DNA of 64,000 nucleotides from Candidatus Bathyarchaeia archaeon. GTDB taxonomy: Archaea > Thermoproteota > Bathyarchaeia > 40CM-2-53-6. The notes beneath the pieces are model-generated. The model was not told where the DNA came from. It was given only the letters and a program-made list of their open reading frames with translations, and did not search any database. Positions within the stretch are counted from its first letter, which is position 1; every line of letters starts with the position of its first letter. Both the position numbers and the translations under genes were made by a program. The DNA lies in contig JBEKFP010000001.1 of assembly GCA_050013255.1 (NCBI GenBank), positions 448,001 to 512,000 of the forward strand, in the 5' to 3' direction. Shown here in pieces: positions 1,296 through 30,196 of this stretch.

Positions 1296-3668
1296 TTGAA
1301 GAAAAGATTGGCAGCTCTCTGCATACTTGCAATCTTAACGATTCTCTCCAGTTTAGTACCTCCTACTCAAACAGCTCACGCTGCTATTGTTTTTCGTGGG
1401 TCGCAGAATCCCAGTGGTCAAGTCTCGATTTTCGTTGAGAGTGACCATGATTTTGTCCCCGGCGAGGTTCAGTTGCTGAATGAGTACGGCACAGTCACGA
1501 CGACCGCAGGCCCCATTGCTGCCGTTCACACCCCAGTAGCCAACCTCCCCGAGATTGGAGGTTTGCCATTTGTCACACGGATTGAGAATTCACATTCCCT
1601 CAGCATTGATCTTGAGAGCGGCGTACCCGATACCGGGGCGCCACAAGTATGGAATCAAGTAAAGGATCCAAATGGCAACAATGTAACTGGCGCAGGAGTA
1701 ATCATTGGGTTCGTCGATACTGGGATTGATACGACACACCCAGATTTCACCTTCCCCAATGGAACCACCAAGATTCTCTACGTCTGGGACCAAACAACCC
1801 CCGGCCGCCCACCTACTGGTTTCGACTATGGCTACGAGTGCACGTCAGCTGACGTCCAAGCGAAGAGCTGTCCTGAAACCGATACATTCGGCCACGGGAC
1901 ACACGTAGCCGGAATAGCGGCAGGTTCCGGATTGGCTACAGGAAACTTTACAGGAGTAGCTCCGGGGGCGAGCATAATCTTCGTGAAGAGCGGGTATGGC
2001 GTATGCAACGGTGCTAGCTGGAATTTCGATACAACTCACATTTTAGATGGCGTAAGTTACATTGTGAAAAAAGCGGCCAAGCTTGGAATGCACGCTGTGA
2101 TAAGCCTCAGCTTAGGTGGAAACATTGGAGCCCACGATGGAACTGACCCGTTCGAACTCGCCCTGGACGCAATTGTGGAGGCGGGAACACCGGTCGTCGT
2201 TGCCGCCGGAAATCAGGCACGAGACAACGCCCACATTCGAGGCCAACTTTCACAGGGAAGCAACGCGACTTTCCAGGTGCAGGTTCAACAAACAACTGTG
2301 GACCTTCAGATCGATGTCTGGTATTCACCTCAGGATCAGATCGACGCGACGCTCACAACACCAGATGGGCAGCATTACCGTGCTCCGACAATTCCTGGAG
2401 GAGTTGTAAGCAACTTCGGCAACGTAACAACCACAACAAGTTCCTCGAACAACGGTGACGAATTGTACCTTGAAGTCAACTCGACTACAAACCTGCCACC
2501 CAATGGATGGAGCATAACTCTAAAGGCGACCCAAATTCAGTCTCAAGGCTTCTGGGACGCGTGGACCGATGCGGTAACTTGCTCCAATCCTGGACCCTTC
2601 TTTACACCCGGTATTGGATACGAGATCGACAGCCACGACACTGTGGGCATACCGGGTACAGCGAGACATGTTGTGACGGTGGGCGCTTACGTAACAAACG
2701 CATCATGGACGGGAATAAATGGTCAGGTCTACGGCCGTACTGACATAGCGCCCGGTGGAATTGCACCATTCAGCTCCTGGGGACCTACAAGGGATGGAAG
2801 AATCAAGCCGGATGTAGTAGCACCTGGGACCAGCATCACTTCCGCAAGATCGAATACGATACGCGAGCAAGGAGGTGACCCTGACGCGTTTCACAGAGTC
2901 CTATCGGGCACAAGCATGGCGACACCACACGTCGCTGGGGCAATTGCTCTAATGCTCCAATACGACCCGCACCTACAAGCGATCGATATCCCTGGAATAC
3001 TCACACGAACCGCACGTTTCGACGCAGACACTGGCGTGTTTACGAACGGCTCTCCGGTTTGGGGCTTCGGGAAATTAGACGCACGCACCGCTACCGGGTT
3101 CTTCCGGTTGATACTGGTAACCAGTGGTATTCCAAGCTCCATCACTGTTCCAGTTCAGGTGGACGGCAAGGACAATCTTGAGTCTTCAGGCGGTTCCTGG
3201 GTTGACCTATACTTCCTCAAAGGAGGAACGCATACGGTTTCGTTGGATACTCAGATTCAAGGTAAACTCGGCACCCGGTACGAACTCGAAGATGGCGGTT
3301 TTGCGGTGTCGGCGAATTCACTAAAGATGCTGGATTACACGGTTCAATATCTACTCGTTGCAAACTCGCGCTTCGGACCTACGTTGGGAGGAGGGTGGTA
3401 CAATGCCAATGCAACTGTGAAAGTTGGTGCTCCAGACCGCGTACCTGCTGGAGGAGCATTAGGTTACCTAGGTGTAGCATACACTTTGGCTTACTGGGTA
3501 GGAGAGAATGGTAGAGTTATGACAAACCCTGTTGTTATGAATACGCCAAGGAACGTAACCGCTGTTTATGCTCTGAGGTTTCCCGTAGAGACGTTTGTGG
3601 TCGCTATAGTAGTCCTAGTAGCAATTCTCGTGTCATTCGTTATTATTGCGAGGAAACGGATGAGTTAA
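1296..3668 (+). CDS. Membrane-anchored subtilisin-like S8 serine protease with inserted beta-domain
   Basis: Signal peptide; catalytic motifs VDTGID, HGTHVAG, AAGN, GTSMATPH; C-terminal TM helix plus basic tail. Confidence 0.9.
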   Translation: MKKRLAALCILAILTILSSLVPPTQTAHAAIVFRGSQNPSGQVSIFVESDHDFVPGEVQLLNEYGTVTTTAGPIAAVHTPVANLPEIGGLPFVTRIENSHSLSIDLESGVPDTGAPQVWNQVKDPNGNNVTGAGVIIGFVDTGIDTTHPDFTFPNGTTKILYVWDQTTPGRPPTGFDYGYECTSADVQAKSCPETDTFGHGTHVAGIAAGSGLATGNFTGVAPGASIIFVKSGYGVCNGASWNFDTTHILDGVSYIVKKAAKLGMHAVISLSLGGNIGAHDGTDPFELALDAIVEAGTPVVVAAGNQARDNAHIRGQLSQGSNATFQVQVQQTTVDLQIDVWYSPQDQIDATLTTPDGQHYRAPTIPGGVVSNFGNVTTTTSSSNNGDELYLEVNSTTNLPPNGWSITLKATQIQSQGFWDAWTDAVTCSNPGPFFTPGIGYEIDSHDTVGIPGTARHVVTVGAYVTNASWTGINGQVYGRTDIAPGGIAPFSSWGPTRDGRIKPDVVAPGTSITSARSNTIREQGGDPDAFHRVLSGTSMATPHVAGAIALMLQYDPHLQAIDIPGILTRTARFDADTGVFTNGSPVWGFGKLDARTATGFFRLILVTSGIPSSITVPVQVDGKDNLESSGGSWVDLYFLKGGTHTVSLDTQIQGKLGTRYELEDGGFAVSANSLKMLDYTVQYLLVANSRFGPTLGGGWYNANATVKVGAPDRVPAGGALGYLGVAYTLAYWVGENGRVMTNPVVMNTPRNVTAVYALRFPVETFVVAIVVLVAILVSFVIIARKRMS

Positions 3669-18836: not shown

Positions 18837-19708
18837 CAACAGTCATCGGCGGAGCAGGCAGAATGGGTGCTTGGTTTGCAGATTTCCTGAAGAAAAAAGG
18901 TTACCGAATTATCATCTCCGACAAGAACGATCGTCAAGGGAAGAATCTCGCCCGACAGAAAAGGTTCCGTTTCATCAAAGACTCTAGGCTTGCGGTTCAA
19001 CCCGCACAGTTAGTCGTTCTCGCTACCCCCACCGAGGCGACTAAGCACATTTTGTTGAAAATCGAACCTCATCTCTCTAGCAGCTGCCTCCTCGTTGAGA
19101 TATCATCAATCAAGGAACCTGTCAGAGCAATTCTTCAGAGCATGAAAAGGCGTGGAATTACTGTCCTTAGCATTCACCCAATGTTCGGCCCAGGAATCAA
19201 GAATCTCACAGGGAAAACAATTATTACAACTTTGCTTCCTCGCGGCAGAAGTGCCGCCGAATTTCTTTCACTCTTCCGGAAAGAGGGGGCGAGAATTATT
19301 CGCAGTGACTTTGATCAGCATGACAAGTTCGCATCCTTCACATTGGCCCTACCACACTTCATGAATGTCGCATTCGTCAATGTCCTGAAAACCTCCGGGC
19401 TTAGCCCGAACGAATTGAGGGCAGTAGCCGGGACAACATTCAAACTCCAGCTAATCATCGCCGAAATGGTTTACCGAGAAAGCTTTGGAAATGAAATTTC
19501 AATTTTGATGGACAGCAAGAACTTGCTGGAGACGCTGAAGGCCTTCGTGCGGTACAGCAATCGGACACTTTGGATGCTTGGCCGTGAGAAGAGGGGCGAT
19601 TTGCTTCAAGACCTCAGGAAAGGACAATGCTACCTTCAAAAGGATTTGATATTTCCCGGCGTGGATGGGCGCTTCAATGCGGCGGTTGAAGCTTCGAGCG
19701 CCCACTGA
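18827..19708 (+). CDS. tyrA: Prephenate/arogenate dehydrogenase
   Basis: IGGAGRMG Rossmann motif, EISSIK, SIHPMFGP, HD......ALPH. Confidence 0.9.
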   Translation: MAVATVIGGAGRMGAWFADFLKKKGYRIIISDKNDRQGKNLARQKRFRFIKDSRLAVQPAQLVVLATPTEATKHILLKIEPHLSSSCLLVEISSIKEPVRAILQSMKRRGITVLSIHPMFGPGIKNLTGKTIITTLLPRGRSAAEFLSLFRKEGARIIRSDFDQHDKFASFTLALPHFMNVAFVNVLKTSGLSPNELRAVAGTTFKLQLIIAEMVYRESFGNEISILMDSKNLLETLKAFVRYSNRTLWMLGREKRGDLLQDLRKGQCYLQKDLIFPGVDGRFNAAVEASSAH

Positions 19709-20825
19709 TGGGTTCATCGTGGTCCTTGCTGCCCAGAACGCGAGATATCACACCCGCCCGAAGGCAATGGTCAACTAGAACGATTGCAACTGCCGCCTCG
19801 ACCACTGGAACCGCTTTCGGAACTATGCACGGGTCGTGGCGGCCAGTTACCTGCACCATGGTATCGTGCATTTCCTTCAGATTGACCGTCTTTTGTTCCT
19901 TAGGAATTGACGAGGGCGGCTTGAACGCAACATGCACAATAATGGGCATGCCATTCGATAAACCGCCAAGTATACCGCCTGCATTATTGGTAAGGGTCTC
20001 AACCTTGCCCTCCCGCACTGTATAGGAATCGTTATTCTGGGACCCCTTCACAGCTGACGATTGAAACCCTAGACCAACCTCAAACCCCTTAACGGCTGGA
20101 ATGCTGAAAGCAATTTTCGCAAGGTCTGCGTCCAGGCTGTCAAAGAAAGGTTCCCCAACTCCGGGCGGCACTCCTGTGGCAATGCATTCCACAATCCCGC
20201 CGAGGCTGTCCCCCTCGCTTCGAGTTTTCATTATTATTTCCTTCATGTTGTCGGCTGTTTCTGGGTCCGCGCATCGTACTGAGTTCGAGTAAGCGTTCCG
20301 TTTTATGGCTTCATACGACAATTGTCGGTCCAACTTAATCGTGTGAATTTGGATAGCATGTGCGAAGACATCGATACCGACAGCGTGCAATAGTTTCTTC
20401 GCGATCGTCCCTGCCATTGTGATTGGGACGGTCAACCTGCCGCTAGCGCGGCCGCCCCCTCGGAGGTCGTTGAAGCCTCCGTATTTGATTCTCGTGGGGT
20501 AGTCGGCGTGTCCTGGCCTAGCTATGAACTTCAACTTGTCATAATCTTGTGACTTCACATCCTTATTCCAAGTGAGCATGGCAACTGGGGCTCCAGTGGT
20601 GTAACCCTCGTATACTCCTGAGAGAAACTGAACGTCATCCTTCTCACGGCGAGCTGAAGTCAGACCGGGGTCAGGTGGCATTCTGCGGTCAAGTTCGGCC
20701 CGCACATCGTCCACACTTAGCTCAAGCCCAGCAGGGCATCCGTCCACAACAACCGCTACTGCAGGACCGTGACTCTCACCAAATACGGTCACGCAGAACT
20801 GCTTTCCGAAGGAACTATCGGTCAA
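19674..20825 (-). CDS. aroC: Chorismate synthase
   Basis: FGESHG, RPGHAD, RGGGRASGR, NNAGGILGG, GRHDPC. Confidence 0.97.
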   Translation of the reverse strand: MTDSSFGKQFCVTVFGESHGPAVAVVVDGCPAGLELSVDDVRAELDRRMPPDPGLTSARREKDDVQFLSGVYEGYTTGAPVAMLTWNKDVKSQDYDKLKFIARPGHADYPTRIKYGGFNDLRGGGRASGRLTVPITMAGTIAKKLLHAVGIDVFAHAIQIHTIKLDRQLSYEAIKRNAYSNSVRCADPETADNMKEIIMKTRSEGDSLGGIVECIATGVPPGVGEPFFDSLDADLAKIAFSIPAVKGFEVGLGFQSSAVKGSQNNDSYTVREGKVETLTNNAGGILGGLSNGMPIIVHVAFKPPSSIPKEQKTVNLKEMHDTMVQVTGRHDPCIVPKAVPVVEAAVAIVLVDHCLRAGVISRVLGSKDHDEPISGRSKLQPPH

Positions 20826-22086
20826 CTATTTCAACTCCAAGTGATCGCAGATCATTGAAGAATGTGGGATATGATTTGCTTACGCATTCGGCATGCTTAA
20901 TGACAACTTGATCCCTTGCCCTTATCGCTGCTATAGAGAGTGCCATTGCAATCCTATGATCACCATGTGAGTCCACAATACCTGCCTCTAGAGAACATGG
21001 CCCAAACATAATCAGACCGTCTTCGGTCTCTTCGATATCAGCTCCAAGTGCCCCAAGCTCGGTAGCAATTGTCTCTAGCCTGTTTGATTCTTTGTAGCGC
21101 AACCTGCCCGCTCCGGTAATCTGCGTCTTTCCTTTGGCGTAGCAACCGAGAACAGCCACTATAGGGCCTAGGTCAGGGCAATCACGCAGGTCAACGTTGA
21201 TGCCCTTTAGTCTGGCACCTTCCACGAGTAGGCCCTCGGGGAGAGAACGCGCCTCAACCCCCATCTTGGAGAGGATTTCAACCATGACTGAATCAGGCTC
21301 AAGGCTATCCCTCGAAAGACCACGAATCAGTAACTTTGAGTCAGTTATGGCCGCTGCGGACATAGCAAACGCAGCGGAGGAAAAATCGCCCGAGACTCTG
21401 TGGGTAGCAGGCTTGTACGATTGCATTGGTGGTACAGTGAACGTTGACTTCTTGCCGTTTGAGCTAACATCAACCCCATGTTTCTTCATGACATCGATAG
21501 TCAGCGAAACGTAACGGTGTGATTCCAGCGGTGAGGTCAGCTCTAATTTCAACTCTTCTTCCATCAGCGGTGCAGCGAGAAGTAGGCCTGAGATGAATTG
21601 GGAGCTAATATCTCCTGGAATGCTAACCTTGCCACCTTTTGGTGGCCCTCCTTCGACGACAACGCAGTTCCGACTTGCTTCCACATCGACTCCGAGTTGC
21701 TTCATGGCTTCAACTAGTGGTTCGATCGGTCTCCCCATCAAACCCTCTTGACCCGCAAGCCTGATTTTCTCCCCTGTCAGCGAAGCGACGGGTATGGTGA
21801 AACGCAAGGTAACTCCGGATTGACCGCATTGAACTTCCTTTCTGGGCGCTGTGGGGCGTCCGTTACTTTGAATGGCCCAAGCGTTTGGCCCACGTTCGAG
21901 TTTTGCTCCGAGGGACGAAATAGCAGCCGTAGTTGCCTCCGTGTCATCGCACGAGAGCGGATTCATAATCTTCGTAACACCCCGGGACAAAAGTCCTGCA
22001 AAGAGCGCCCTATGGGTGTGGGCTTTGGAAGGTGGTGCCCATATCTCGCCGATTAGAACGCTTTTCGGGGTTACGGTAACGTTCAA
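20815..22086 (-). CDS. aroA: EPSP synthase
   Basis: PPSKAHTHR, SSQFISGLL, GDFSSAAF, KESNR, DHRIAM, KSYP; TTG start overlapping the aroK stop. Confidence 0.95.
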   Translation of the reverse strand: MNVTVTPKSVLIGEIWAPPSKAHTHRALFAGLLSRGVTKIMNPLSCDDTEATTAAISSLGAKLERGPNAWAIQSNGRPTAPRKEVQCGQSGVTLRFTIPVASLTGEKIRLAGQEGLMGRPIEPLVEAMKQLGVDVEASRNCVVVEGGPPKGGKVSIPGDISSQFISGLLLAAPLMEEELKLELTSPLESHRYVSLTIDVMKKHGVDVSSNGKKSTFTVPPMQSYKPATHRVSGDFSSAAFAMSAAAITDSKLLIRGLSRDSLEPDSVMVEILSKMGVEARSLPEGLLVEGARLKGINVDLRDCPDLGPIVAVLGCYAKGKTQITGAGRLRYKESNRLETIATELGALGADIEETEDGLIMFGPCSLEAGIVDSHGDHRIAMALSIAAIRARDQVVIKHAECVSKSYPTFFNDLRSLGVEIVDR

Positions 22087-22964
22087 CTTTTCACCCTCGA
22101 GGATTGAGCTTTCTGGAAGTTGAATGATGTTTCGATGATTCTGCCCGGGAGCAAGTTCCATGCGGAAAGAACACCCTTCACCTTAGTCCTTGGGACGATA
22201 GCAGCAACCGCAGGCCCCTTTCCTGTCAGGCCGGCAGCGATAGCCCCTTCGTGAAGAGCCTCTCTAATCGATTTTGTATCGTACCCAAAGGCTTTGCAAT
22301 AAACCAAACCATTCAACGTCATCGAGTTCCAATAGTTTCCGCTCAAGGCCTCTCGGTGTGCAACTTGGACGAATGGCCTGAATTTTCTCAAAGATGCTCG
22401 ATCAACTTCGCTGGTGTACTTTTTGCGGTTTGGAACATGAATGAACACCCGAAAATGATCCTTCGGCTTGAAACGTTTCAGAATCCGCCTGTGCACATTG
22501 TCCGTTACTACGAGCCCGCCGAAGTAGCACGCGCACGCGTCGTCATAGGCTCCGGTCAGCGTCACTCCTGCCCGGAAGCTGGCCTCAACACCCAGTTTCA
22601 CGGTCTGAATATCGTTTACTTTCCTACCCAGAACTTTCAGGCTGGCGATTGCAACGGCGTTGCTTGCAGCGCTGCTGCTTTTCAAGCCGACTGCAATAGG
22701 AATATTGGAATTCGTTTCAATGAGCGCCCCGAAACGTTTGTCTTTTCTGAATCGTTGAAACACATGGCGAGCTGTTGTTTCAATTAGGTTCGGGTCTTCC
22801 TTCGGGTCAGTCAAATTACGCCCAACAAACTGGTGTGGTCGGTTTGTAAGCGTCACTTTCGCTCGCGTCCAAAGCCTAACGCCGAGTGCTGCGCCTCTGC
22901 CGGTGGCCATGGCGTTCACTATGGTTACGGCTCCATGGCTCACTGCCTCAGCTACTTTTCGCAT
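22083..22964 (-). CDS. aroK: Archaeal (GHMP-family) shikimate kinase
   Basis: GAVTIVNA.ATG.G, IP...GLKSSSA, TGAYDDA, GLTGKGP. Confidence 0.93.
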   Translation of the reverse strand: MRKVAEAVSHGAVTIVNAMATGRGAALGVRLWTRAKVTLTNRPHQFVGRNLTDPKEDPNLIETTARHVFQRFRKDKRFGALIETNSNIPIAVGLKSSSAASNAVAIASLKVLGRKVNDIQTVKLGVEASFRAGVTLTGAYDDACACYFGGLVVTDNVHRRILKRFKPKDHFRVFIHVPNRKKYTSEVDRASLRKFRPFVQVAHREALSGNYWNSMTLNGLVYCKAFGYDTKSIREALHEGAIAAGLTGKGPAVAAIVPRTKVKGVLSAWNLLPGRIIETSFNFQKAQSSRVKS

Positions 22965-23835
22965 GCTCCATCGCCAGTATGGTCTGGCTCATTGCACGAC
23001 GCATCTCGATAATTGGAGCGCGCCTTCCTGTCCACAGCTCGAACGCGCATGCGCCTTGGTTGACTAACATGTCTAGGCCGTTGACGCTCTTTGCACCTGC
23101 CAAGTTGGCAAGTTCGAGCAGTTTAGTATGAGGCGGCTTGTAAACAATATCGAAAACGCACTGATCGTGGCTCAACCATTCTGCTGCGATCGGAGGAATG
23201 GACACGCCATCCATCCCCATGGAGGACGCGTTAACCACAATGTTCGCCTGCTGGACGAAATCCTTGAGCATCCTATCCGAGATAGAGGCATATTCGACCT
23301 CAATGTGGAGCTTCCTTCTTATCCTTAGTACGAGCTGCTTAGACTTTGCAACGGTTCTGTTCACGAGTCGAATTGAGGAAGCACGTTGAGCCAGCGTGTA
23401 TGCAATAGCTCGGCTTGCGCCACCAGCCCCGAAAATAAGAACCGACTTTCCGTCAGGCGATACGCCAACCTCCTTTAACGCCCTGAGAGCACCTACCCCA
23501 TCGGTGTTGTAACCTCGGAGTTTTCCATTTTCATTGATTACAGTGTTGACGGAGCCGATCGCGTCAGCTGAGGGTTCAATCATGTCAAGATAGGGCTGGA
23601 CAGTCACCTTGTGAGGCGCAGTAACATTGAAACCCTTCACACCCGAGGCTCGCAAGCCTTTGACAGCGTCCCTCAGATTCCGCCGCGTTACATGGAGAGG
23701 CACGTAGACGGCATTTATTTCGGTTGAGCGAAAGGCAACGTTTTGGATTTTGGGGCTCAAGGAGTGGTCAATGGGGTCCCCTATCAAAGCATAGACCGCT
23801 GTGCTTCCAGAAATTCTTCCGCTACTAAACTCCAA
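22948..23835 (-). CDS. aroE: Shikimate dehydrogenase
   Basis: GDPIDHSLSP, NVTAPHK, NTDG.G, GAGGA, GLDMLVNQG. Confidence 0.95.
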   Translation of the reverse strand: MEFSSGRISGSTAVYALIGDPIDHSLSPKIQNVAFRSTEINAVYVPLHVTRRNLRDAVKGLRASGVKGFNVTAPHKVTVQPYLDMIEPSADAIGSVNTVINENGKLRGYNTDGVGALRALKEVGVSPDGKSVLIFGAGGASRAIAYTLAQRASSIRLVNRTVAKSKQLVLRIRRKLHIEVEYASISDRMLKDFVQQANIVVNASSMGMDGVSIPPIAAEWLSHDQCVFDIVYKPPHTKLLELANLAGAKSVNGLDMLVNQGACAFELWTGRRAPIIEMRRAMSQTILAMEHAKSS

Positions 23836-24484
23836 GTAGTTGCCACGCACTTCGAAGGTTATCAATGGTCAATTGGCCGTCTGCCGTCTTGGAGGCCTCA
23901 GTGAGTGAGGCAAAAGTAAATTCCGCGCCGAAAAGGGGCGAGAGAATTCTTGAGGCGATACCGTGATGTCCCATCGCAAATGACACTAGCCTAGTTTTCG
24001 ATGATTCCTCTTCGAGGAAGCGTAATATGCTCAGGTTGTCGCGTGGACAGAGTGCGGTTGTAACGACCTTGCAGACATCGCTCCCTGCCTTGATTTCGGA
24101 GTCCAAGACCTCACCCAATTCATTTCGTGAAGGAGTTTTTGAAAAGTCGTGGAACGACACAATCACTCCCGATCCCATGGACTTCACCTGACGGACATCA
24201 GACCGTACATGTGGAGAAGCAAGATCTAAATCGATGAATTCAAAACCTGAGGATGCGGCTGTCATGAGGCGCTTTCTTGTCGTGGCTGCGTCTCGATTGG
24301 ACTTGTCGGCAGCTATCGCCGGGAATGTTTTCTTGTGAGCAATATCCTCAAGCGCTGCAAAATTACTCAGGTTGTCGAGTCGAAACTCCACTAAATCTGG
24401 TTTCTTTTGTGATAGCAGGCCCATCAGTTGGTCGAGGTTTTCGCTGCCGTCTACCATGACCGAGAGGCAGATTCGGCAGGTCAA
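23825..24484 (-). CDS. aroD: Type I 3-dehydroquinate dehydratase
   Basis: VEFRLD, IVSFHDFSKTP, K, FAMG..G..SRI, A.GQ. Confidence 0.92.
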   Translation of the reverse strand: MTCRICLSVMVDGSENLDQLMGLLSQKKPDLVEFRLDNLSNFAALEDIAHKKTFPAIAADKSNRDAATTRKRLMTAASSGFEFIDLDLASPHVRSDVRQVKSMGSGVIVSFHDFSKTPSRNELGEVLDSEIKAGSDVCKVVTTALCPRDNLSILRFLEEESSKTRLVSFAMGHHGIASRILSPLFGAEFTFASLTEASKTADGQLTIDNLRSAWQLLGV

Positions 24485-25539
24485 CGCTCTATCGCCATTT
24501 CATCGGCCACGAGCGTTCCGAAATGCCGTCCGCCATCTTCAATCCTGACTAAGACTTCATCGCCCGATTTGAGTTCCGAAACTGACTTCGAAGCCCCGTC
24601 GGAGACTAGGCGCACTGTTTCTGCGTTCTGGACTATGAATGCGAACAAACGTCCATTAACTTCTGTTTCAACCAGAACCATCGGTCGCCTTTCGATTTTC
24701 ACTCGCCCAATGTGCCCCGTTCTCGCACGACCCGACCTGTTCACGATTAGGACCTCGTCCCCTGTTTTCAGTTCTGAAAGGTAACGGGTCTTGTGGTCCG
24801 GGGTTAGGACATAGGATGAAACGGGTCCTGCGTTGACCCTGAAAGGTCGCGGTTCAACATGTGGATTCTTGTGGACCTCAGCTTCCACCAAGAACAAACC
24901 CGATGACTGGGACCCTACTAGCATACCTTCCCCTGGATCCATCAGTTCGCACGTGTCGACGCAGACACGAGCACCCATTCCTATTGGCCTGACCAACGTA
25001 ACGCTCCCTCTAAGTAAAGCGACCTTTTGTTGCATCTGCTTCAGAAATCGTTCCATTTCTTCGATGTCGTTCGGGGAATTTGGTGTAATGACTACTCCAT
25101 CAACCCCAAGTTCTAAGGTTTGCAACGCAACCTTAGCATCACTGACGTTTGCAACATCGGCTAAGAGGACGGCCTTGTTCCTTGTGCGAGCGATGAGGTT
25201 TTCAAGAGGGATAATTTTCCAGTTGGGGCATCGGACTAGGATGTAGCGAATGCCTAACGCAGCCAGCCGAACAACTTTCTGCTCATCTGAATTGTCTTTT
25301 ACTATAACCTCAAGGGCTGAGTTACCTGAAACGCTCTCGCCCACGTCGTGATGGCCTGACAGAAGTTTGATTTCGGAACGTTCATCAGTTGAAGCCGTCT
25401 TTAGTTTCAAGCCACTGGCAAGTGACAGGTCAGCGGGTTGTAGCAATGCAACGTCGCAACGACCTTCAGCGGTTTTGAGTAGCTCCGCTTTGTGGGTTGA
25501 AGTGGTGTTAGGATCGATTCTAATCCAGAGCTGCTTCAC
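24481..25539 (-). CDS. aroB': 3-dehydroquinate synthase II (archaeal type)
   Basis: WKIIPLEN, RVCVDTC, RPFRVNAG, YLSEL, QNAETVRL, RHFG. Confidence 0.95.
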   Translation of the reverse strand: MKQLWIRIDPNTTSTHKAELLKTAEGRCDVALLQPADLSLASGLKLKTASTDERSEIKLLSGHHDVGESVSGNSALEVIVKDNSDEQKVVRLAALGIRYILVRCPNWKIIPLENLIARTRNKAVLLADVANVSDAKVALQTLELGVDGVVITPNSPNDIEEMERFLKQMQQKVALLRGSVTLVRPIGMGARVCVDTCELMDPGEGMLVGSQSSGLFLVEAEVHKNPHVEPRPFRVNAGPVSSYVLTPDHKTRYLSELKTGDEVLIVNRSGRARTGHIGRVKIERRPMVLVETEVNGRLFAFIVQNAETVRLVSDGASKSVSELKSGDEVLVRIEDGGRHFGTLVADEMAIER

Positions 25540-26327
25540 TAAGATGACCCCAGCAACTTCATGGAGCTTTGTGCGCTAGCACCTCCATGAACAATCGCGG
25601 ACAAGGCCTTGCACATAGCCTCTGGTTTTTCGTGTTGGAACACGTTTCGACCAAAGGAGAGGCCTGCGGCGCCAGATTTGATGGAGTTTTCCGCGAGTTC
25701 GAGAACTTCCAAATCGGTTTTCGTCCTAGGGCCGCCAGCCACTACCACTGGAACCGGACAACCGTTGACAACTTTTCTGAAGCTTTCCTGGTCACCGGTG
25801 TAGACTGTCTTAACAATGTCTGCTCCGAGTTCTGCTCCAATTCTAGCTGCGTGGGAAACAACTTCGAATTCATTTTCGCTCTTTATGTTCGGCCCCCTCG
25901 GATACATCATTGCAAGGAGCGGTATCCCGAAAGAATCACACTGCTCAGATAGGTTCCCTAGAAACTCAAGCATCTCATGCTCTTCATCAGCCCCGATGTT
26001 TATGTGGGCCGAAACCGCATCTGCGCCAAGCCTGACCGCTTCCTCAACCGTGCATACGCCGACTTTGAGGTTTGGTTTACTTCCAAGAGTGGTTGAGGCG
26101 GAGACATGGATAATGAGCCCGTGGTTGTGAGTGTCCACGTGTTTTGCAATGCCCTTGTGTACTAAGACCGCGTCTGCTCCACCATTGAAAACAGCCCTTA
26201 TGATTGCTTGCATATTCTCCAACCCTCGTACAGGGCCGAGTGTGACGCCATGATCCATCGCGATCATGAAGGTCTTCGAATCATCCCGCATGATCCGCCG
26301 CATCCTCCTCGTCTTTCCCGATTCCAT
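25539..26327 (-). CDS. aroA': 2-amino-3,7-dideoxy-D-threo-hept-6-ulosonate synthase (DhnA-type aldolase)
   Basis: MDHG, MMYPRG, AELGADIVKT.Y, AGG, GRNVFQ; adjacent to aroB'. Confidence 0.9.
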   Translation of the reverse strand: MESGKTRRMRRIMRDDSKTFMIAMDHGVTLGPVRGLENMQAIIRAVFNGGADAVLVHKGIAKHVDTHNHGLIIHVSASTTLGSKPNLKVGVCTVEEAVRLGADAVSAHINIGADEEHEMLEFLGNLSEQCDSFGIPLLAMMYPRGPNIKSENEFEVVSHAARIGAELGADIVKTVYTGDQESFRKVVNGCPVPVVVAGGPRTKTDLEVLELAENSIKSGAAGLSFGRNVFQHEKPEAMCKALSAIVHGGASAQSSMKLLGSS

Positions 26328-26340
26328 TTCAATATCACCG

Positions 26341-27384
26341 TCAAATGTAGCCTTGAGATTTCATCGACTCGGCTATGAGAACAGCACAACCCGCAGCACC
26401 ACGAACTGTGTTATGGCCGAGGGCAACATACTTCACGCCATCAAACACAGGATCCTTCCTCACCCGCCCCACAACAACAGACATACCACGCCCTTCATTT
26501 CTATCGAAACGCGGTTGCGGCCGGTCCTGTTCTGACCGCACAATGATCGGTCGTTCTGGGGCCGAAGGTAGTTTCAGCTCTTGTGGTTCTGCGGCAAACG
26601 CAGCCATGCAATCGACGACCTGTTCGGGCGTCGATGGCTTCACGGTTTGGACGAAGACGGCTTCTGTGTGCCCGTCGATTACTGGCACGCGGTGGCAGCT
26701 AGCCGATAAATTGAACTCCGCTGAATGCCCAACATTGCCCAGAATTTTCTGAGTTTCCCGTTGAACTTTTTCCTCTTCATCCTTTATGAATGGGATCACA
26801 TTGTCGATTATGTCCAGCGACGCAACGCCTGGGTAGCCAGCGCCGGATACTGCTTGCATTGAAGACATGACGACATTCTTCAGGCCGAATTTGTCAAAAA
26901 TAGGTTTCAATGAAAGGCTGAGGACAGCCGTCGTACAGTTAGGGTTGGTTACTAGCGCACCGTCCCATCTCCGTTTGTGCCTTTGCTCGTCGATAAGTTT
27001 CAGATGATTGAAGTTCGCTTCGGGGTTCAACAGCGGGACATCGGCCTCCATCCTGTATGCTGAAGCGTTACTTACTACAGCATAGCCAGCCCTTGCGAAA
27101 GCCTCCTCAGTTCCAACCGCTTGATCAGCCGGGAGGGCCGAGAAGACAACCTCCGCATCAACTTCCTTGGGATTAGAAGGCTGGATGGTCAGTTCAGCGA
27201 TTCTTTCCTTCAGTCGAGTTTCCATTTTCCAATTAGCCGCTTCGCCATACCGTAGTCCAGCGCTCCTTTCAGACCCCGTTAGAGTTGTAATCTCGAACCA
27301 TGGGTGATCGTTCAATAGCTGTACGAACCGTTGGCCGACAAGGCCGGTTGCCCCTAGGATTGCCGCTTTCACCCTACAACTCAC
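26341..27384 (-). CDS. asd: Aspartate-semialdehyde dehydrogenase (archaeal type)
   Basis: LGATGLVGQRF, NPNCTT, QAVSGAGYPG, RVPVIDGH, HNTVRGAAG. Confidence 0.96.
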   Translation of the reverse strand: MSCRVKAAILGATGLVGQRFVQLLNDHPWFEITTLTGSERSAGLRYGEAANWKMETRLKERIAELTIQPSNPKEVDAEVVFSALPADQAVGTEEAFARAGYAVVSNASAYRMEADVPLLNPEANFNHLKLIDEQRHKRRWDGALVTNPNCTTAVLSLSLKPIFDKFGLKNVVMSSMQAVSGAGYPGVASLDIIDNVIPFIKDEEEKVQRETQKILGNVGHSAEFNLSASCHRVPVIDGHTEAVFVQTVKPSTPEQVVDCMAAFAAEPQELKLPSAPERPIIVRSEQDRPQPRFDRNEGRGMSVVVGRVRKDPVFDGVKYVALGHNTVRGAAGCAVLIAESMKSQGYI

Positions 27385-28726
27385 CCCTCACAACTTGCCT
27401 CATGAGATTCAGAGCCGTCTCCCTCTCGTCCCATGAGACGAAAACAAGAATGCTCGAGGCCAACGTCAGCATTCCGAAAATGTTGATTCCCTTTTCGCGC
27501 AGGCGCTGCGATATTCTACCTATGATCCCGGGAGTGTCCTCCAGGCCAACCCCTTTGACTTTCAGGAAAGCCAAGTTTGCTTGGACTGCCATCGCGAGGG
27601 TTTCGCTGCAACTAGTGACCAAGTCATGGACGCTTGTGAGTGGAAAAGTCTCAGGAGTCTGGGGGACATAGAATATGACGGAGTCGAAGTTGGCTGAGAG
27701 ACCATCGAGCGCCGAATGTTGTCTTATCTCACGCACTACGTTAGCTAGTATCTCCGGGTTTTCGGAAATGGCTTTGCCGGTTATTGTGATCGCCATCGCG
27801 GGGGTCCTGCTGGCAAAAGTAACCTCGATTTCGCCTGATATTCCGCCTGTGATGATTGTTCCGTCAGCTTCTAGGTCGTCTTTATTGTGATTAATCACTT
27901 TGACTGGTATATCGGGATCTTTGTATTTCAGAGCCTTCCTGTGGATGAATTTGGTTCCTGAACCTGCTAACCCCACGAGGGTTCCAACTTCTATCTGCGC
28001 GAGTTTACGTGCGTTTGGAATGATTTTGGGGTCAGCTGTGAGGATTCCATCAGCGTCAGTTACCAAGACGACCTCGTCAGCTCCGATAGCTTTTGCTATG
28101 ATGAAAGCGGTTGTGTCGCTTCCGCCTCGCCCTATGGTGCTTATCTTGCCCCCAGTTGAGCGGCCTACGAATCCAGCGATTACTGGCACCGTCCCCCAGT
28201 CGAGTAGTGGGACGACGTGCTCACGGACTTTCTGCAAGCACAACTCAAGTATTGGGTTCGCGTTGGAGAAGTCATCATCAGTAATGATCGGCCAATCGGC
28301 GTCGGTCGGATCGAAGTATCTCGCTTCGAGACCTTCGGCTTTAAGCGCGGTGGCAAAGATACGTACGCTGGTTCTTTCGCCCATCGCTAGAACGTCATCT
28401 AGATCCGTCTTATCCGGCGCCTTAGTAGAGTCATGATTGACAAGGCCGATAAGCTGGTCAGTCATCTTCCCCATGGCTGAAACTACTACAACGAGTCGAG
28501 TGCCCTTCGCCGTCTCTCTGGATACTAGCCGGGCAGCTTTCGCAATGCGGTCTTTGTCCGCTAGGCTTGAACCGCCGAACTTGACAACAATTCTGCGTGT
28601 CTTTTGTTTAGATGAAGTACCGGGACTTGCTGTGATTACCGTTTGAAGTGTTCTCGGCGCAGAAATCTTACTTGACAGAGTTTGGGGCGTGGTAGAGCCA
28701 GTAGCCCTCACCGTAAATGTAATCAC
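27374..28726 (-). CDS. lysC: Aspartate kinase with ACT domains (true start unresolved)
   Basis: VVKFGGSS, VVSAMG, GRGGSDTTA, TDADGI.TADP; only GTG 28726/28711 lie upstream of the conserved domain. Confidence 0.92.
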   Translation of the reverse strand: MITFTVRATGSTTPQTLSSKISAPRTLQTVITASPGTSSKQKTRRIVVKFGGSSLADKDRIAKAARLVSRETAKGTRLVVVVSAMGKMTDQLIGLVNHDSTKAPDKTDLDDVLAMGERTSVRIFATALKAEGLEARYFDPTDADWPIITDDDFSNANPILELCLQKVREHVVPLLDWGTVPVIAGFVGRSTGGKISTIGRGGSDTTAFIIAKAIGADEVVLVTDADGILTADPKIIPNARKLAQIEVGTLVGLAGSGTKFIHRKALKYKDPDIPVKVINHNKDDLEADGTIITGGISGEIEVTFASRTPAMAITITGKAISENPEILANVVREIRQHSALDGLSANFDSVIFYVPQTPETFPLTSVHDLVTSCSETLAMAVQANLAFLKVKGVGLEDTPGIIGRISQRLREKGINIFGMLTLASSILVFVSWDERETALNLMRQVVRGEL

Positions 28727-28754
28727 CGTGCATTGTACCAGCCATTTGTTTCAT
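28668..28754 (-). CDS. Putative Tyr/Trp-rich leader peptide of the ask-asd-aro operon, MKQMAGTMHGDYIYGEGYWLYHAPNSVK*
   Basis: GAGGGG SD 6 nt before ATG; 4 Tyr + 1 Trp within codons 12-21; first ORF after a TATA-like box; overlaps ask out of frame. Confidence 0.6.
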   Translation of the reverse strand: MKQMAGTMHGDYIYGEGYWLYHAPNSVK

Positions 28755-28793
28755 ACTACGCCCCTCGGTAGCTGAACGCACCACTTGAATGTG

Positions 28794-28801
28794 ACTTAAA
28801 A
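28794..28801 (-). promoter_or_regulatory. Putative TATA box of the aromatic biosynthesis operon
   Basis: TTTTAAGT on minus strand ~30 nt upstream of the leader SD. Confidence 0.5.
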
Positions 28802-28844
28802 GAATTCCTCAGCCAATCAACATAATCTTGCGTCGAAAGACAAT

Positions 28845-29537
28845 TCACATTCCTATGTACAGGCGCTCAGCCAAGAATTTCGGTAGTCCGGCTTGAACAA
28901 TTTTGTCTGCGACGGGGTCAACGTCATATTCGACTCGTATGACATCGAAGGATGCTTGCCCTTCGGAGATCGTAAGGGTTGCGAAGCTTGCTCGAGGGTC
29001 GCTATCTCGCGGCTGGCCCACACTGCCTGGATTACCTACTATGCTTCCTCCAAACGAATACGCCATAGGCACGTGCGTATGCCCGAGCAGCACTATCTCT
29101 GCCCCACTTCGTGCGACCAATTTCCGTGCGGCCGAATCAGTTAAGCTTGGCAAAACGTATTCTGTCAGCGGATTACTTGGGCTGCCGTGAAAGAGGCCTA
29201 AGAGTTTACCACCCTTTTCCAAACTTGCTGAGGGCTGTAAGGTGGCCAGGTATTCATGGTACTGATGTGCGATTTTCTTCCTAGTCCATTCTACAGCTTC
29301 AGCTGCATGGAATGAGAACCCTCCAGTGTCGCCCGTTACAACCGCGTAATCATGGTTTCCCATTAGCACTGCGCTTGGCCTAAGCTGTCTAAGTCTTTCC
29401 ACTACTTCGTTTGGTTGGGGCCCGTAACCCACCAAGTCTCCCAAGCAGAATAGTTCATCATAGTTAGGTAACTTGGCGATGACTGCTTCAAAGGCGTCGA
29501 GGTTCGAGTGAATGTCAGAAATGACAACGATTTTCAA
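28845..29537 (-). CDS. Metallophosphoesterase (calcineurin-like)
   Basis: SDIHSN, GDLVGYG, GNHD, HGSP, GHTH, NPGSVGQPRD. Confidence 0.9.
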   Translation of the reverse strand: MKIVVISDIHSNLDAFEAVIAKLPNYDELFCLGDLVGYGPQPNEVVERLRQLRPSAVLMGNHDYAVVTGDTGGFSFHAAEAVEWTRKKIAHQYHEYLATLQPSASLEKGGKLLGLFHGSPSNPLTEYVLPSLTDSAARKLVARSGAEIVLLGHTHVPMAYSFGGSIVGNPGSVGQPRDSDPRASFATLTISEGQASFDVIRVEYDVDPVADKIVQAGLPKFLAERLYIGM

Positions 29538-29593
29538 CGGAAGCGCCGTGGAATGAGCGACCTCGCCTGAGAAATGGTTAGCGGTTTGTTCTG

Positions 29594-30196
29594 TTAAAGT
29601 TCCAAGTCAATCTGCTCGACGTAGGAGAGATCCTCGCCACAGTATGGACAGAGTTTGAACGTTCTATCAACTTTCTTCCCGCATTCAGGACATTCGACCT
29701 TGAATGGGTACCTGCAGAAGGGACAGAGTGCAAAGTCAGCTGCAACTCTGCGCCCGCATTTCTTACACAGTTGTTCACCGCTACTATCTGCAACATGTGT
29801 TGGGTGCTCCGGACCTTGAATGATGACTGGTAAGGGCTGTCCGGAACCGGAACTCGAGTCTCGAACGATATTTTCACGAAGAATACGGTGAAGTTGGAAT
29901 GCGTCAGGTTTTGCCAGGTTACCAACCTTGATGCTTTGTACTCCTGACCGCATTAGAATTTCGATGCTGGCCCTGCGGACTCCTCGGTCAAGTTTGATGT
30001 TGACCATGTTAGAATAAGGATAATCAACGAAGCTTTTCTTCAGCCCCAATCCGCCTGTTTTGCGAATTATGATACGCTGGTCGCTGACGACCACCGTCTC
30101 GCTGCCGCGTAGGACCCAGATGACTTTCTCATCATAGTTGATGAGGTGTTTCATGTCCTCCGGTACTGGTAGCGTTCCCAAATGATGGAGCCTCAT
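29594..30196 (-). CDS. Bacterial-type PH domain protein with C-terminal double zinc ribbon
   Basis: E.V......VVSDQRIII...G......DYPY..M pattern; C-terminal CKKCG/CPFC/CPECG/CPYCG; start ATG 30196 chosen. Confidence 0.7.
   Translation of the reverse strand: MRLHHLGTLPVPEDMKHLINYDEKVIWVLRGSETVVVSDQRIIIRKTGGLGLKKSFVDYPYSNMVNIKLDRGVRRASIEILMRSGVQSIKVGNLAKPDAFQLHRILRENIVRDSSSGSGQPLPVIIQGPEHPTHVADSSGEQLCKKCGRRVAADFALCPFCRYPFKVECPECGKKVDRTFKLCPYCGEDLSYVEQIDLEL

What the first reader, a model, noticed from the sequence alone, without database searches (positions are those of the whole stretch)
28668..28766. Tyr/Trp-rich 28-aa leader peptide ahead of the shikimate operon
Seen: GAGGGG-6nt-ATG on minus gives MKQMAGTMHGDYIYGEGYWLYHAPNSVK*, with four TAC and one TGG in ten consecutive codons. 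It is the first ORF after a TATA-like box and heads a nine-gene aromatic precursor operon. Established: clusters of cognate codons in leader peptides are the hallmark of bacterial attenuators (trpL, pheL). Inference: a translation-coupled sensor of aromatic amino acids, acting by frameshift, RNA refolding or transcription polarity. No U-tract terminator is visible downstream, so classical attenuation is not supported.
Basis: partly seen in the sequence, partly recalled or inferred. Interest (0 to 1): 0.85.

Follow-up and report, generated by a model that had tools for sequence, protein, structure and literature searches.

The report
Aromatic-codon leader overlapping aspartate kinase
A tiny conserved gene carrying Phe/Tyr codons sits at the head of the aspartate-kinase/shikimate operon of this uncultured Bathyarchaeia archaeon. 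It overlaps the kinase frame by one base, which suggests a starved ribosome slips +1 into the enzyme frame, a control not described in archaea.

Summary
The 28-codon ORF is real, and its start, ribosome-binding site and stop are conserved in about 65 related sequences. That frame is +1 relative to the leader, has no start near the kinase domain, and stays open through a 38-58 codon variable linker.

The conserved core is not the Tyr/Trp cluster. It is a 15-nt cassette: a 16S-complementary GGTGRY, a variable 3-nt spacer, NTT-T, then a Phe (TTC) or Tyr (TAY) codon. There are 1-4 tandem copies in relatives and one intact copy in this window.

In other Bathyarchaeia the same operon is preceded by pheL-like leaders that end in Phe/Tyr runs and are followed at once by a hairpin. 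Ribosome sensing of aromatic codons at this operon is therefore well supported.

My best reading for this window (about 0.4) is a hungry-codon +1 frameshift from the leader into AK. The main rival is independent GTG initiation with the leader acting as an occluding uORF. No terminator or significant RNA fold is present.

This scan found the same device earlier on other DNA (e1-5228272; hairpin type: e1-2779646, e1-3784711). I found no published report.

The parts
28794..28808 (-). BRE/TATA-like promoter box (GGAATTCTTTTAAGT)
   Evidence: The block is nearly invariant in 18 same-genus upstream regions. Its distance puts the inferred transcript start about 15 nt before the leader ATG. That start is inferred from usual archaeal promoter geometry, not mapped.
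28761..28766 (-). Shine-Dalgarno GAGGGG of the leader ORF
   Evidence: It is complementary to the 16S 3' end read in six same-genus genomes. Its aligned spacing to the start is 8, at the genome-wide peak of 7-11. The same spacing is kept in most of about 65 relatives, whether the start is ATG, GTG or TTG.
28668..28754 (-). Leader ORF, frame 0: 28 codons plus TAA
   Evidence: Searches give the ORF. Start and stop are conserved in the genus. The stop column reads TAA, TAG or TGA, while the +1-frame residues at that place vary.
28713..28727 (-). The single intact cassette: GGTGAT (28727-28722), spacer TAC, proposed P-site codon ATT (28718-28716), A-site codon TAC (28715-28713)
   Evidence: GGTG and TTTA(C/T) are invariant columns in an unbiased alignment of AK upstream regions. 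There are 76 distinct cassettes in relatives. The AK-proximal cassette always has TAY and the upstream one always TTC. The motif is unique in the genome.
28595..28726 (-). N-terminal extension of the AK frame (+1 relative to the leader), from GTG 28726 to the start of the kinase domain
   Evidence: The Pfam AA_kinase domain starts at residue 45 of this frame, and no canonical start lies near KFGG. The cassette-to-KFGG distance keeps one frame over 11 or more different lengths, without stops, in about 65 sequences.
27374..28594 (-). Aspartate kinase proper (AA_kinase plus ACT domains)
   Evidence: It is the only AK found in this genome with this query.
19674..27384 (-). Eight further operon genes: asd, ADH synthase (DeoC family), DHQS-II, aroD, aroE, GHMP shikimate kinase, EPSP synthase, chorismate synthase. 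Most junctions overlap or are under 15 nt.

Best explanation
The element is a translated leader ORF that reports the supply of charged tRNA-Tyr (and tRNA-Phe in relatives) to the ask-asd-shikimate operon.

The proposed steps are as follows. Ribosomes start at ATG 28754, which has the good Shine-Dalgarno. After 13 codons the P site holds ATT (28718-28716) and the A site holds TAC. GGTGAT, three bases upstream, can pair with the 16S 3' tail. If Tyr-tRNA is plentiful, the ribosome reads on and stops at TAA 28670, and the AK frame stays poorly translated. If Tyr-tRNA is scarce, the peptidyl-tRNA slips from AUU to UUU (+1) and the ribosome continues through a variable linker into aspartate kinase. 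The tightly coupled downstream genes would follow.

What is shown: the anatomy, its conservation, the frame relation, and the aromatic identity of the A-site codon. What is inferred: that the leader is translated, that ribosomes pause there, that the slip occurs, and that the whole operon follows.
For: 1. **The leader is a real ORF.** Its SD sits at aligned spacing 8-10 before an ATG, GTG or TTG start in most of about 65 sequences. Its stop column is kept as TAA, TAG or TGA while the +1-frame residues there vary.
2. **AK translation must enter at the cassette.** The kinase domain starts at residue 45 with no start nearby. The cassette-to-KFGG distance keeps the +1 frame, stop-free, over 11 or more lengths. 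The only exceptions are L012, a 1-nt indel against its near-twin L013, and L022.
3. **The conservation is a nucleotide signal, not a peptide.** GGTG and TTT(T/A)Y are invariant while the spacer codon varies in both frames. dN/dS is equal in both frames.
4. **The geometry resembles bacterial prfB.** The cassette has an SD-like hexamer, 3 nt, NUU_U, then a codon that can be slow to decode. In prfB the SD stimulator lies 3 nt from the CUU_U shift site (PMC5009743). GGUGAUC pairs fully with the 16S tail read in the genus.
5. **The A-site codon is always aromatic.** It is always Phe or Tyr. The upstream cassette always has TTC and the AK-proximal cassette always TAY.
6. **Relatives sense aromatic codons at the same place.** In other families, and in all 19 upstream regions read from other orders of the class, the same operon carries leaders ending in Phe/Tyr runs, followed at once by a hairpin. 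Some of those leaders contain S-G-Y-W-F, which resembles S-G-Y-I-F of the genus. This suggests frame 0 descends from a true aromatic leader.
7. **L022 points to a delivery role.** There the +1 ORF is not fused to AK. It runs 65 codons and stops 2 nt before AK's own start, as expected if its job is to deliver ribosomes.
8. **The direction of regulation fits.** A frameshift raises expression on starvation. Simple occlusion by a stalled ribosome would lower it.
Against: - A GTG in the +1 frame is part of every GGTG, three codons before the slip site. An independent start for AK can therefore never be excluded from sequence.
- About half of the genus also has ATG in the +1 frame at aligned spacing 11, which is within the range this genome uses.
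- The SD-like hexamer pairs with GAUCACC, not CCUCC. Its effective spacing to the P site is therefore 7, the relaxed initiation-like value, and not the compressed 3 that is thought to drive the prfB shift.
- After the slip, AUU, GUU and CUU keep only two of three base pairs.
- The window has a single cassette, and its nearest relative L002 has ATA at the SD-proximal start.
- No expression, ribosome-profiling or proteome data could be obtained.
- Archaea have no demonstrated cellular +1 frameshift (PMC8211752).
Confidence: 0.4

Rival explanations
1. There is no frameshift. AK starts independently at a GTG (or ATG) inside the cassette region. The leader is an overlapping uORF that competes for or occludes that start, setting a low fixed level of AK or lowering it further when ribosomes stall.
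For: - A +1-frame GTG is present in every cassette. In f2 and g2 it lies 4 nt after the leader ATG (ATGGGTG) and can share its SD at aligned spacing 12.
- Half of the genus has a +1-frame ATG at spacing 11.
- The SD-like hexamers never take the GGAGG form, which would remove the GTG.
Against: - In this window GTG 28726 has no SD, and GTG 28711 lies at aligned spacing 14, near background.
- The ATG/ACG polymorphism shows that the +1 ATG is dispensable.
- A stalled ribosome would block AK exactly when aromatic amino acids are short, which is the wrong direction for a biosynthetic operon.
- It does not explain the invariant TTT (never TTC) or the strictly aromatic frame-0 codon after it.
- It does not explain why a conserved out-of-frame ATG with the better SD would be kept just upstream of the true start.
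Confidence: 0.27
2. The 15-nt repeats are a nucleic-acid signal read by something other than the translating ribosome: a repeat-binding RNA or DNA protein (TRAP-like), or a small-molecule-binding RNA. On this reading both peptide frames are by-products.
For: - Conservation is at nucleotide level, with equal dN/dS in both frames.
- The repeats are tandem, with copy number varying from 1 to 4.
- GTGATCAC in the genus is palindromic, and RNAalifold pairs two neighbouring units.
- A helix between the SD region and a downstream segment has weak support (permutation p about 0.03).
Against: - The leader RNA of the window folds no better than shuffles (z -0.40).
- The paired units are not complementary in the window or in L003.
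- There is no Rfam match.
- The motif occurs once in the genome, so it marks no regulon.
- It lies 35-50 nt downstream of the inferred transcript start, an unusual place for an archaeal repressor.
- It does not explain the conserved frame-0 start and stop, or the fixed frame to AK.
Confidence: 0.13
3. Classical bacterial-style transcription attenuation acts in this window. Ribosome position on the leader would choose between terminator and antiterminator hairpins.
For: The aromatic codons lie in a leader at the head of the operon. Relatives with separate leaders do have a strong hairpin right after the stop, in family f8 followed by a T-run.
Against: - No terminator-like site is found.
- No significant fold is found.
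- The AK frame is open across the whole region where a terminator would have to lie.
Confidence: 0.05
4. The leader is a chance ORF with no function.
For: Y/W-rich 10-codon stretches are common: 88 in the genome and six in this window.
Against: The start, SD, stop and cassette are conserved in about 65 sequences from three lineages whose AK is only 50-57% identical to the window's.
Confidence: 0.02

Closest known systems
E. coli prfB (release factor 2) autoregulatory +1 programmed frameshift
   Same: Both have a short frame-0 ORF, with the functional protein in the +1 frame. Both have an NUU_U shift site, and CUU_U itself occurs in many relatives. Both have a 16S-complementary hexamer three bases upstream, and an A-site codon whose decoding rate reports the regulated quantity (PMC5009743; cassettes).
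   Different: Here the sensor codon is a sense codon for Tyr or Phe rather than UGA, so the input would be aminoacyl-tRNA supply rather than a release factor. The hexamer pairs with GAUCACC rather than CCUCC, giving a relaxed rather than compressed spacing. The cassette is repeated in tandem. An in-frame GTG always offers an alternative entry. The organism is an archaeon. Nothing has been shown experimentally.
Ribosome-mediated attenuators of amino-acid operons (E. coli pheL-pheA, trpL, hisL)
   Same: Both have a short leader ORF with its own ribosome-binding site in front of the biosynthetic operon, carrying codons for the end-product amino acids. The relatives with separate leaders ending in Phe/Tyr runs plus a hairpin look very much like pheL.
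   Different: In this window there is no terminator, no alternative fold and no gap between the leader and the first gene. Only one or two aromatic codons are conserved.
ermC leader with ketolides: drug-induced frameshift in a uORF that opens the downstream start
   Same: In both, a frameshift inside a short leader lets ribosomes run on in the new frame towards the main gene (PMC5009743). L022, where the +1 ORF ends 2 nt before AK's own start, fits this pattern best.
   Different: In the window the +1 frame is fused to AK, so no re-initiation or unfolding step is needed. The trigger would be starvation rather than an antibiotic.
Antizyme (OAZ) +1 frameshift sensing polyamines
   Same: Both use a +1 shift as sensor and effector of a metabolic feedback loop.
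   Different: Antizyme is eukaryotic, the shift occurs at a stop codon, it is stimulated by a downstream pseudoknot, and it senses a small molecule rather than charged tRNA.

Membership tests
Ribosome-mediated transcription attenuator (trpL/pheL class) | Short leader ORF with its own ribosome-binding site in the 5' leader of the operon | tested here: met
   GAGGGG, 6 nt, then ATG. The SD spacing and start are conserved.
Ribosome-mediated transcription attenuator (trpL/pheL class) | Run of codons for the regulating amino acid | tested here: inconclusive
   The window has four TAC and one TGG in 10 codons. Across relatives, only the Phe codon of the upstream cassette and the Tyr codon of the proximal cassette are fixed.
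Ribosome-mediated transcription attenuator (trpL/pheL class) | Intrinsic terminator between the leader and the first structural gene | tested here: not met
   No terminator-like site lies in 28400-28950. The AK frame is open through the region.
Ribosome-mediated transcription attenuator (trpL/pheL class) | Mutually exclusive terminator and antiterminator folds | tested here: not met
   The fold z-score is -0.40. RNAalifold finds only one 8-bp hairpin, which is not formed in the window.
prfB-type regulatory +1 programmed frameshift | Short frame-0 ORF overlapped by the main ORF in the +1 frame | tested here: met
   Searches show the overlap. The frame is kept in all but two (L012, L022) of about 65 sequences, over 11 or more linker lengths.
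prfB-type regulatory +1 programmed frameshift | Slippery NUU_U shift site (CUU_U in prfB) | tested here: met
   The window has ATT_T. Across 76 distinct cassettes the site is ATT, GTT, CTT or TTT followed by T, and TTT is never TTC.
prfB-type regulatory +1 programmed frameshift | 16S-complementary stimulator 3 nt upstream of the shift codon | tested here: inconclusive
   The hexamer lies 3 nt upstream and pairs with the 16S tail. It pairs in a different register, so the effective spacing is 7 and not 3.
prfB-type regulatory +1 programmed frameshift | Slow-to-decode A-site codon that reports the regulated quantity | not testable with these tools
   The codon is always TTC or TAY. Decoding kinetics under starvation cannot be computed.
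prfB-type regulatory +1 programmed frameshift | Frameshift is obligatory: no start codon for the +1 ORF | tested here: not met
   A GTG lies three codons before every slip site.
prfB-type regulatory +1 programmed frameshift | Trans-frame protein product | not testable with these tools
No proteome data were available.

The most novel reading that the evidence does not exclude
This would be an amino-acid-sensing programmed +1 frameshift in an archaeon. A ribosome waiting for Tyr-tRNA (or Phe-tRNA) on a short leader slips into the frame of aspartate kinase and so switches on the whole aspartate-to-chorismate operon. On this reading the device is built from tandem SD-like/NUU_U/aromatic-codon cassettes and evolved from a pheL-like leader peptide.
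Probability: 0.4. Interest if true: 0.9.

Novelty: new variant of a known kind. Interest (0 to 1): 0.8.

Why it matters
- **Leader sensing in archaea.** Leader-peptide sensing of amino acids is textbook in bacteria. I found no report of it in archaea in four full-text searches.
- **Frameshifting in archaea.** A 2021 review lists only one demonstrated archaeal frameshift, a -1 event, and a +1 event only for a virus (PMC8211752).
- **Two solutions in one class.** One archaeal class shows two ways of sensing aromatic supply at the same operon: a pheL-like leader plus hairpin, and the overlapping cassette type found here.
- **If the frameshift is real.** It would be the first cellular +1 recoding event in archaea. 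It would also be, as far as I could find, the first case of hungry-codon frameshifting used as a designed metabolic sensor, a possibility so far discussed mainly as incidental (pheL; PMC5009743).
- **Annotation.** Gene callers will give this AK a 45-residue false or uncertain N-terminus.

Tried and rejected
- **Rfam.** A scan of 27500-30000 at E up to 10 gave only a noise-level snoRNA hit.
- **Genome-wide motif search.** The cassette, with up to 5 mismatches, and cassette-like +1 arrangements were sought across the genome. Only the AK site qualifies, so there is no regulon and no similar device on other operons.
- **Other leaders in this genome.** A generic scan for single-amino-acid-rich short ORFs upstream of long ORFs was too noisy to use.
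- **dN/dS by frame.** This was meant to decide which frame is coding, but the values are equal and therefore uninformative.
- **SD-sequestering helix.** I tested a long-range helix between the leader SD and a segment after the cassettes, comparing cognate with non-cognate duplex energies. The difference is marginal (-21.8 against -20.8 kcal/mol, p about 0.03), and I do not rely on it.
- **Alternative RNA folds.** Another first-reader note on this same stretch (e1-5578981) proposed them. The thermodynamic signal is absent (z -0.40).
- **16S rRNA.** It is not in this assembly, so it was taken from six same-genus genomes.

Full report
**1. The observation**

On the minus strand, GAGGGG (28766-28761) is followed after 6 nt by ATG 28754. 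This opens a 28-codon ORF that ends at TAA 28670-28668. Ten consecutive codons contain four TAC and one TGG. A TTTTAAGT box lies at 28801-28794.

Pfam confirms the nine downstream genes: aspartate kinase (AK), aspartate-semialdehyde dehydrogenase, a DeoC-family aldolase (ADH synthase), dehydroquinate synthase II, aroD, aroE, a GHMP-type shikimate kinase, EPSP synthase and chorismate synthase. The upstream gene is a metallophosphoesterase. No terminator-like site is present.

The composition alone is not remarkable. The genome has 88 stretches with at least 5 Y/W in 10 stop-free codons, and six of them lie in this window. Only three lie in short ATG-started ORFs.

**2.

The AK frame is open from GTG 28726, inside the leader ORF and in the +1 frame. 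The Pfam kinase domain begins only at residue 45 of that frame. No ATG, GTG or TTG lies between GTG 28711 and the K-F-G-G motif.

**3. Organism and relatives**

The closest public contigs are Bathyarchaeia MAGs from peat and Danish soils. I read the region upstream of this AK from four sources:
- 29 relatives;
- 32 further genomes of the order;
- 80 metagenome contigs;
- 20 genomes of other orders of the class.

**4. Two architectures**

*Type I.* This type is found in five families of the order, in 28 of the 80 metagenome loci, and in all 19 readable upstream regions from other orders (one of the 20 fetched could not be read).
- A separate short ORF ends in a run of Phe/Tyr codons. Typical endings are F-F-D-F-F-Y-Y-Y-F-Y-F-E, seven Tyr then C-F-F, and F-S-G-Y-W-F-T-Y.
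- Within 0-5 nt of its stop comes a 10-15 bp hairpin.
- In family f8 a T-run follows the hairpin. Then come a Shine-Dalgarno and an AK start about ten codons before K-F-G-G.
- The hairpin differs in sequence between families but keeps its place.

*Type II.* This type is found in the window's genus g1, its sister genus g2, family f2, and one hot-spring contig (L142).
- The short ORF overlaps a +1-frame ORF.
- That ORF runs without stops through a variable Ser/Thr/Pro-rich linker of 38-58 codons into AK.

**5. Anatomy of type II**

The conserved core is a 15-nt cassette: GGTG(A/G)(T/C), a 3-nt spacer, NTT, then T(T/A)(C/T).

In an alignment of AK upstream regions that was not chosen for the motif, GGTG and TTTA(C/T) are invariant columns. 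The spacer codon varies in both frames.

Copy number varies:
- one in g2;
- two in f2;
- one or two intact cassettes, plus a degenerate third unit, in g1;
- one extra in L002.

Among 76 distinct cassettes, the AK-proximal one always has TAY (Tyr) as the codon after NTT. The upstream one always has TTC (Phe). NTT is ATT, GTT, CTT or once TTT.

The window has one intact cassette, at 28727-28713: GGTGAT, TAC, ATT, TAC. Its first unit is degenerate. That unit varies freely across the genus, with W replaced by R, S or Q and Y replaced by C, N, H, I or L.

**6. Both frames are used**

*Frame 0 (leader).*
- Its start is ATG, GTG or TTG, and in most of about 65 sequences it lies at aligned spacing 8-10 from a GAGG or AGGTGA element.
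- That spacing is the peak of SD spacing in this genome, 7-11.
- Its stop falls in one alignment column in 16 of 18 genus members, as TAA, TAG or TGA. The +1-frame residues at that place vary among K, N, S, R, D and E.
- The same holds in g2, where TAA and TAG alternate at one position.

*Frame +1 (AK).*
- The distance from the cassette to K-F-G-G is congruent to 1 modulo 3 in every sequence, over at least 11 different lengths, and no stop intervenes.
- There are two exceptions. L012 has a 1-nt indel relative to its near-identical twin L013. In L022 the +1 ORF is unfused, runs 65 codons and stops 2 nt before AK's own SD-led TTG start.

Neither peptide is conserved as a protein. dN/dS is 0.41 in both frames within the cassette and about 1 on either side.

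**7. The ribosomal RNA link**

This assembly lacks a 16S gene. Six same-genus genomes all end ...GGCCGGAUCACCUCCUU. GGUGAUC is therefore fully complementary to the 16S tail, and GGUGGUC is complementary with one G-U pair.

**8. Mechanism**

The cassette has the layout of the bacterial prfB +1 frameshift site: an SD-like stimulator, 3 nt, CUU_U, then a slow A-site codon. The published features match: a 3-nt spacing for +1 shifts, CUU_U as the conserved shift site, and a short frame-0 ORF acting as sensor and effector (PMC5009743).

Here the A-site codon is a Phe or Tyr codon. [quoted passage not shown]

The proposal is as follows:
- Ribosomes start on the leader.
- With the A site waiting for Tyr-tRNA, the P-site tRNA slips from AUU to UUU.
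- Translation then continues into AK.
- Ribosomes that do not slip stop at the conserved frame-0 stop.

This is the only simple model in which starvation raises expression. A ribosome stalled three to five codons past the +1 GTG would block independent initiation.

The type I relatives show independently that ribosome sensing of aromatic codons has been selected at this operon. The S-G-Y-W-F motif of some type I leaders resembles S-G-Y-I-F of g1, which suggests that frame 0 of type II descends from such a leader.

**9. Caveats**

- Every GGTG contains a +1-frame GTG, so an independent AK start can never be excluded from sequence.
- About half of g1 also has a +1 ATG at aligned spacing 11, which is within the used range.
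- The hexamer pairs with GAUCACC, not CCUCC. The effective spacing to the P site is therefore 7, the relaxed initiation-like value, rather than the compressed 3 of prfB. It may hold the ribosome rather than push it.
- RNA structure adds little. The fold z-score is -0.40. RNAalifold finds one 8-bp hairpin between two units, which is not formed in the window. A possible helix between the SD and a downstream segment has only marginal support.
- No expression data could be obtained.

**10. Novelty**

Four full-text searches found no report of leader-peptide control in archaea or of this element. A 2021 review states that only one archaeal programmed frameshift (-1, fucA1) has been demonstrated, and that +1 is suspected only in a haloarchaeal virus (PMC8211752).

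Within this scan the same device has been noted before on other genomes:
- type II with the same frameshift reading: e1-5228272;
- type I: e1-2779646, e1-3784711, e1-2408602, e1-743684, e1-1245442.

I wrote down the frameshift reading before seeing those notes. They are AI notes on related DNA, not independent evidence.

**11. Verdict**

| Claim | Probability |
|---|---|
| Real, conserved regulatory leader ORF | about 0.8 |
| It senses aromatic aminoacyl-tRNA through the ribosome | about 0.6 |
| It acts by +1 frameshift into AK | about 0.4 |

It is not a member of the classical attenuator class, because two defining features were tested and not met. It works like a prfB-type switch, but two membership features are inconclusive or not met.

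Noticed in passing
L021, L023, L024, L026-L028, L058-L065, L120-L164 (28 loci), L165-L184: In most Bathyarchaeia lineages sampled, this AK is preceded by pheL-like leader ORFs that end in Phe/Tyr runs. A 10-15 bp hairpin follows within 0-5 nt of the stop, and in family f8 a T-run follows that. These look like archaeal ribosome-dependent attenuators.
   Followed up: partly
L022:about 2739-2940 (minus strand), genome G034: This is an intermediate form. It has two cassettes and a 65-codon +1 ORF that is not fused to AK. That ORF stops 2 nt before AK's own SD-led TTG start, which suggests termination-reinitiation coupling.
   Followed up: partly
whole genome G000: With this query only one aspartate kinase is found in the window's genome, whereas many relatives carry a second paralogue of about 33% identity. 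Supply of aspartate semialdehyde for Thr and Met would then also depend on this aromatic-controlled gene. In the +1 frame the cassettes encode Val, Thr, Phe, Met and Ile.
   Followed up: no
L012 (G006:C14) against L013 (G010:C293): These are near-identical leaders, but L012 has a 1-nt difference that puts the cassette out of frame with AK (open frame 419 against 451 aa). This is either an assembly error or an inactivated switch.
   Followed up: no
L018 (G013:C4:108961-110139): The AK match has two in-frame TGA codons and a frame change near its 5' end. The gene is broken or misassembled.
   Followed up: no
L002 (G014:C20), nearest relative of the window: The SD-proximal leader start is ATA instead of ATG. 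One extra 15-nt Phe cassette has been gained. This shows recent turnover of cassette number.
   Followed up: no
G000 assembly: No 16S rRNA gene is found in the three contigs, although marker completeness is reported as 100%.
   Followed up: partly
window 28627-28700 (+): A weak Rfam hit to the C/D snoRNA family sn2343 (15.8 bits, E 4.4, gathering score 60). It lies on the opposite strand and is taken as noise.
   Followed up: no
L142 (Ga0073934_10071900): A distant type II variant from another habitat. It has GGAGG at spacing 7, a GTG start, and one cassette (GGTGGT, AAC, GTT, TAC), with AK in the +1 frame. AK identity is only 56%, so the cassette type is wider than the three lineages first seen.
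   Followed up: no
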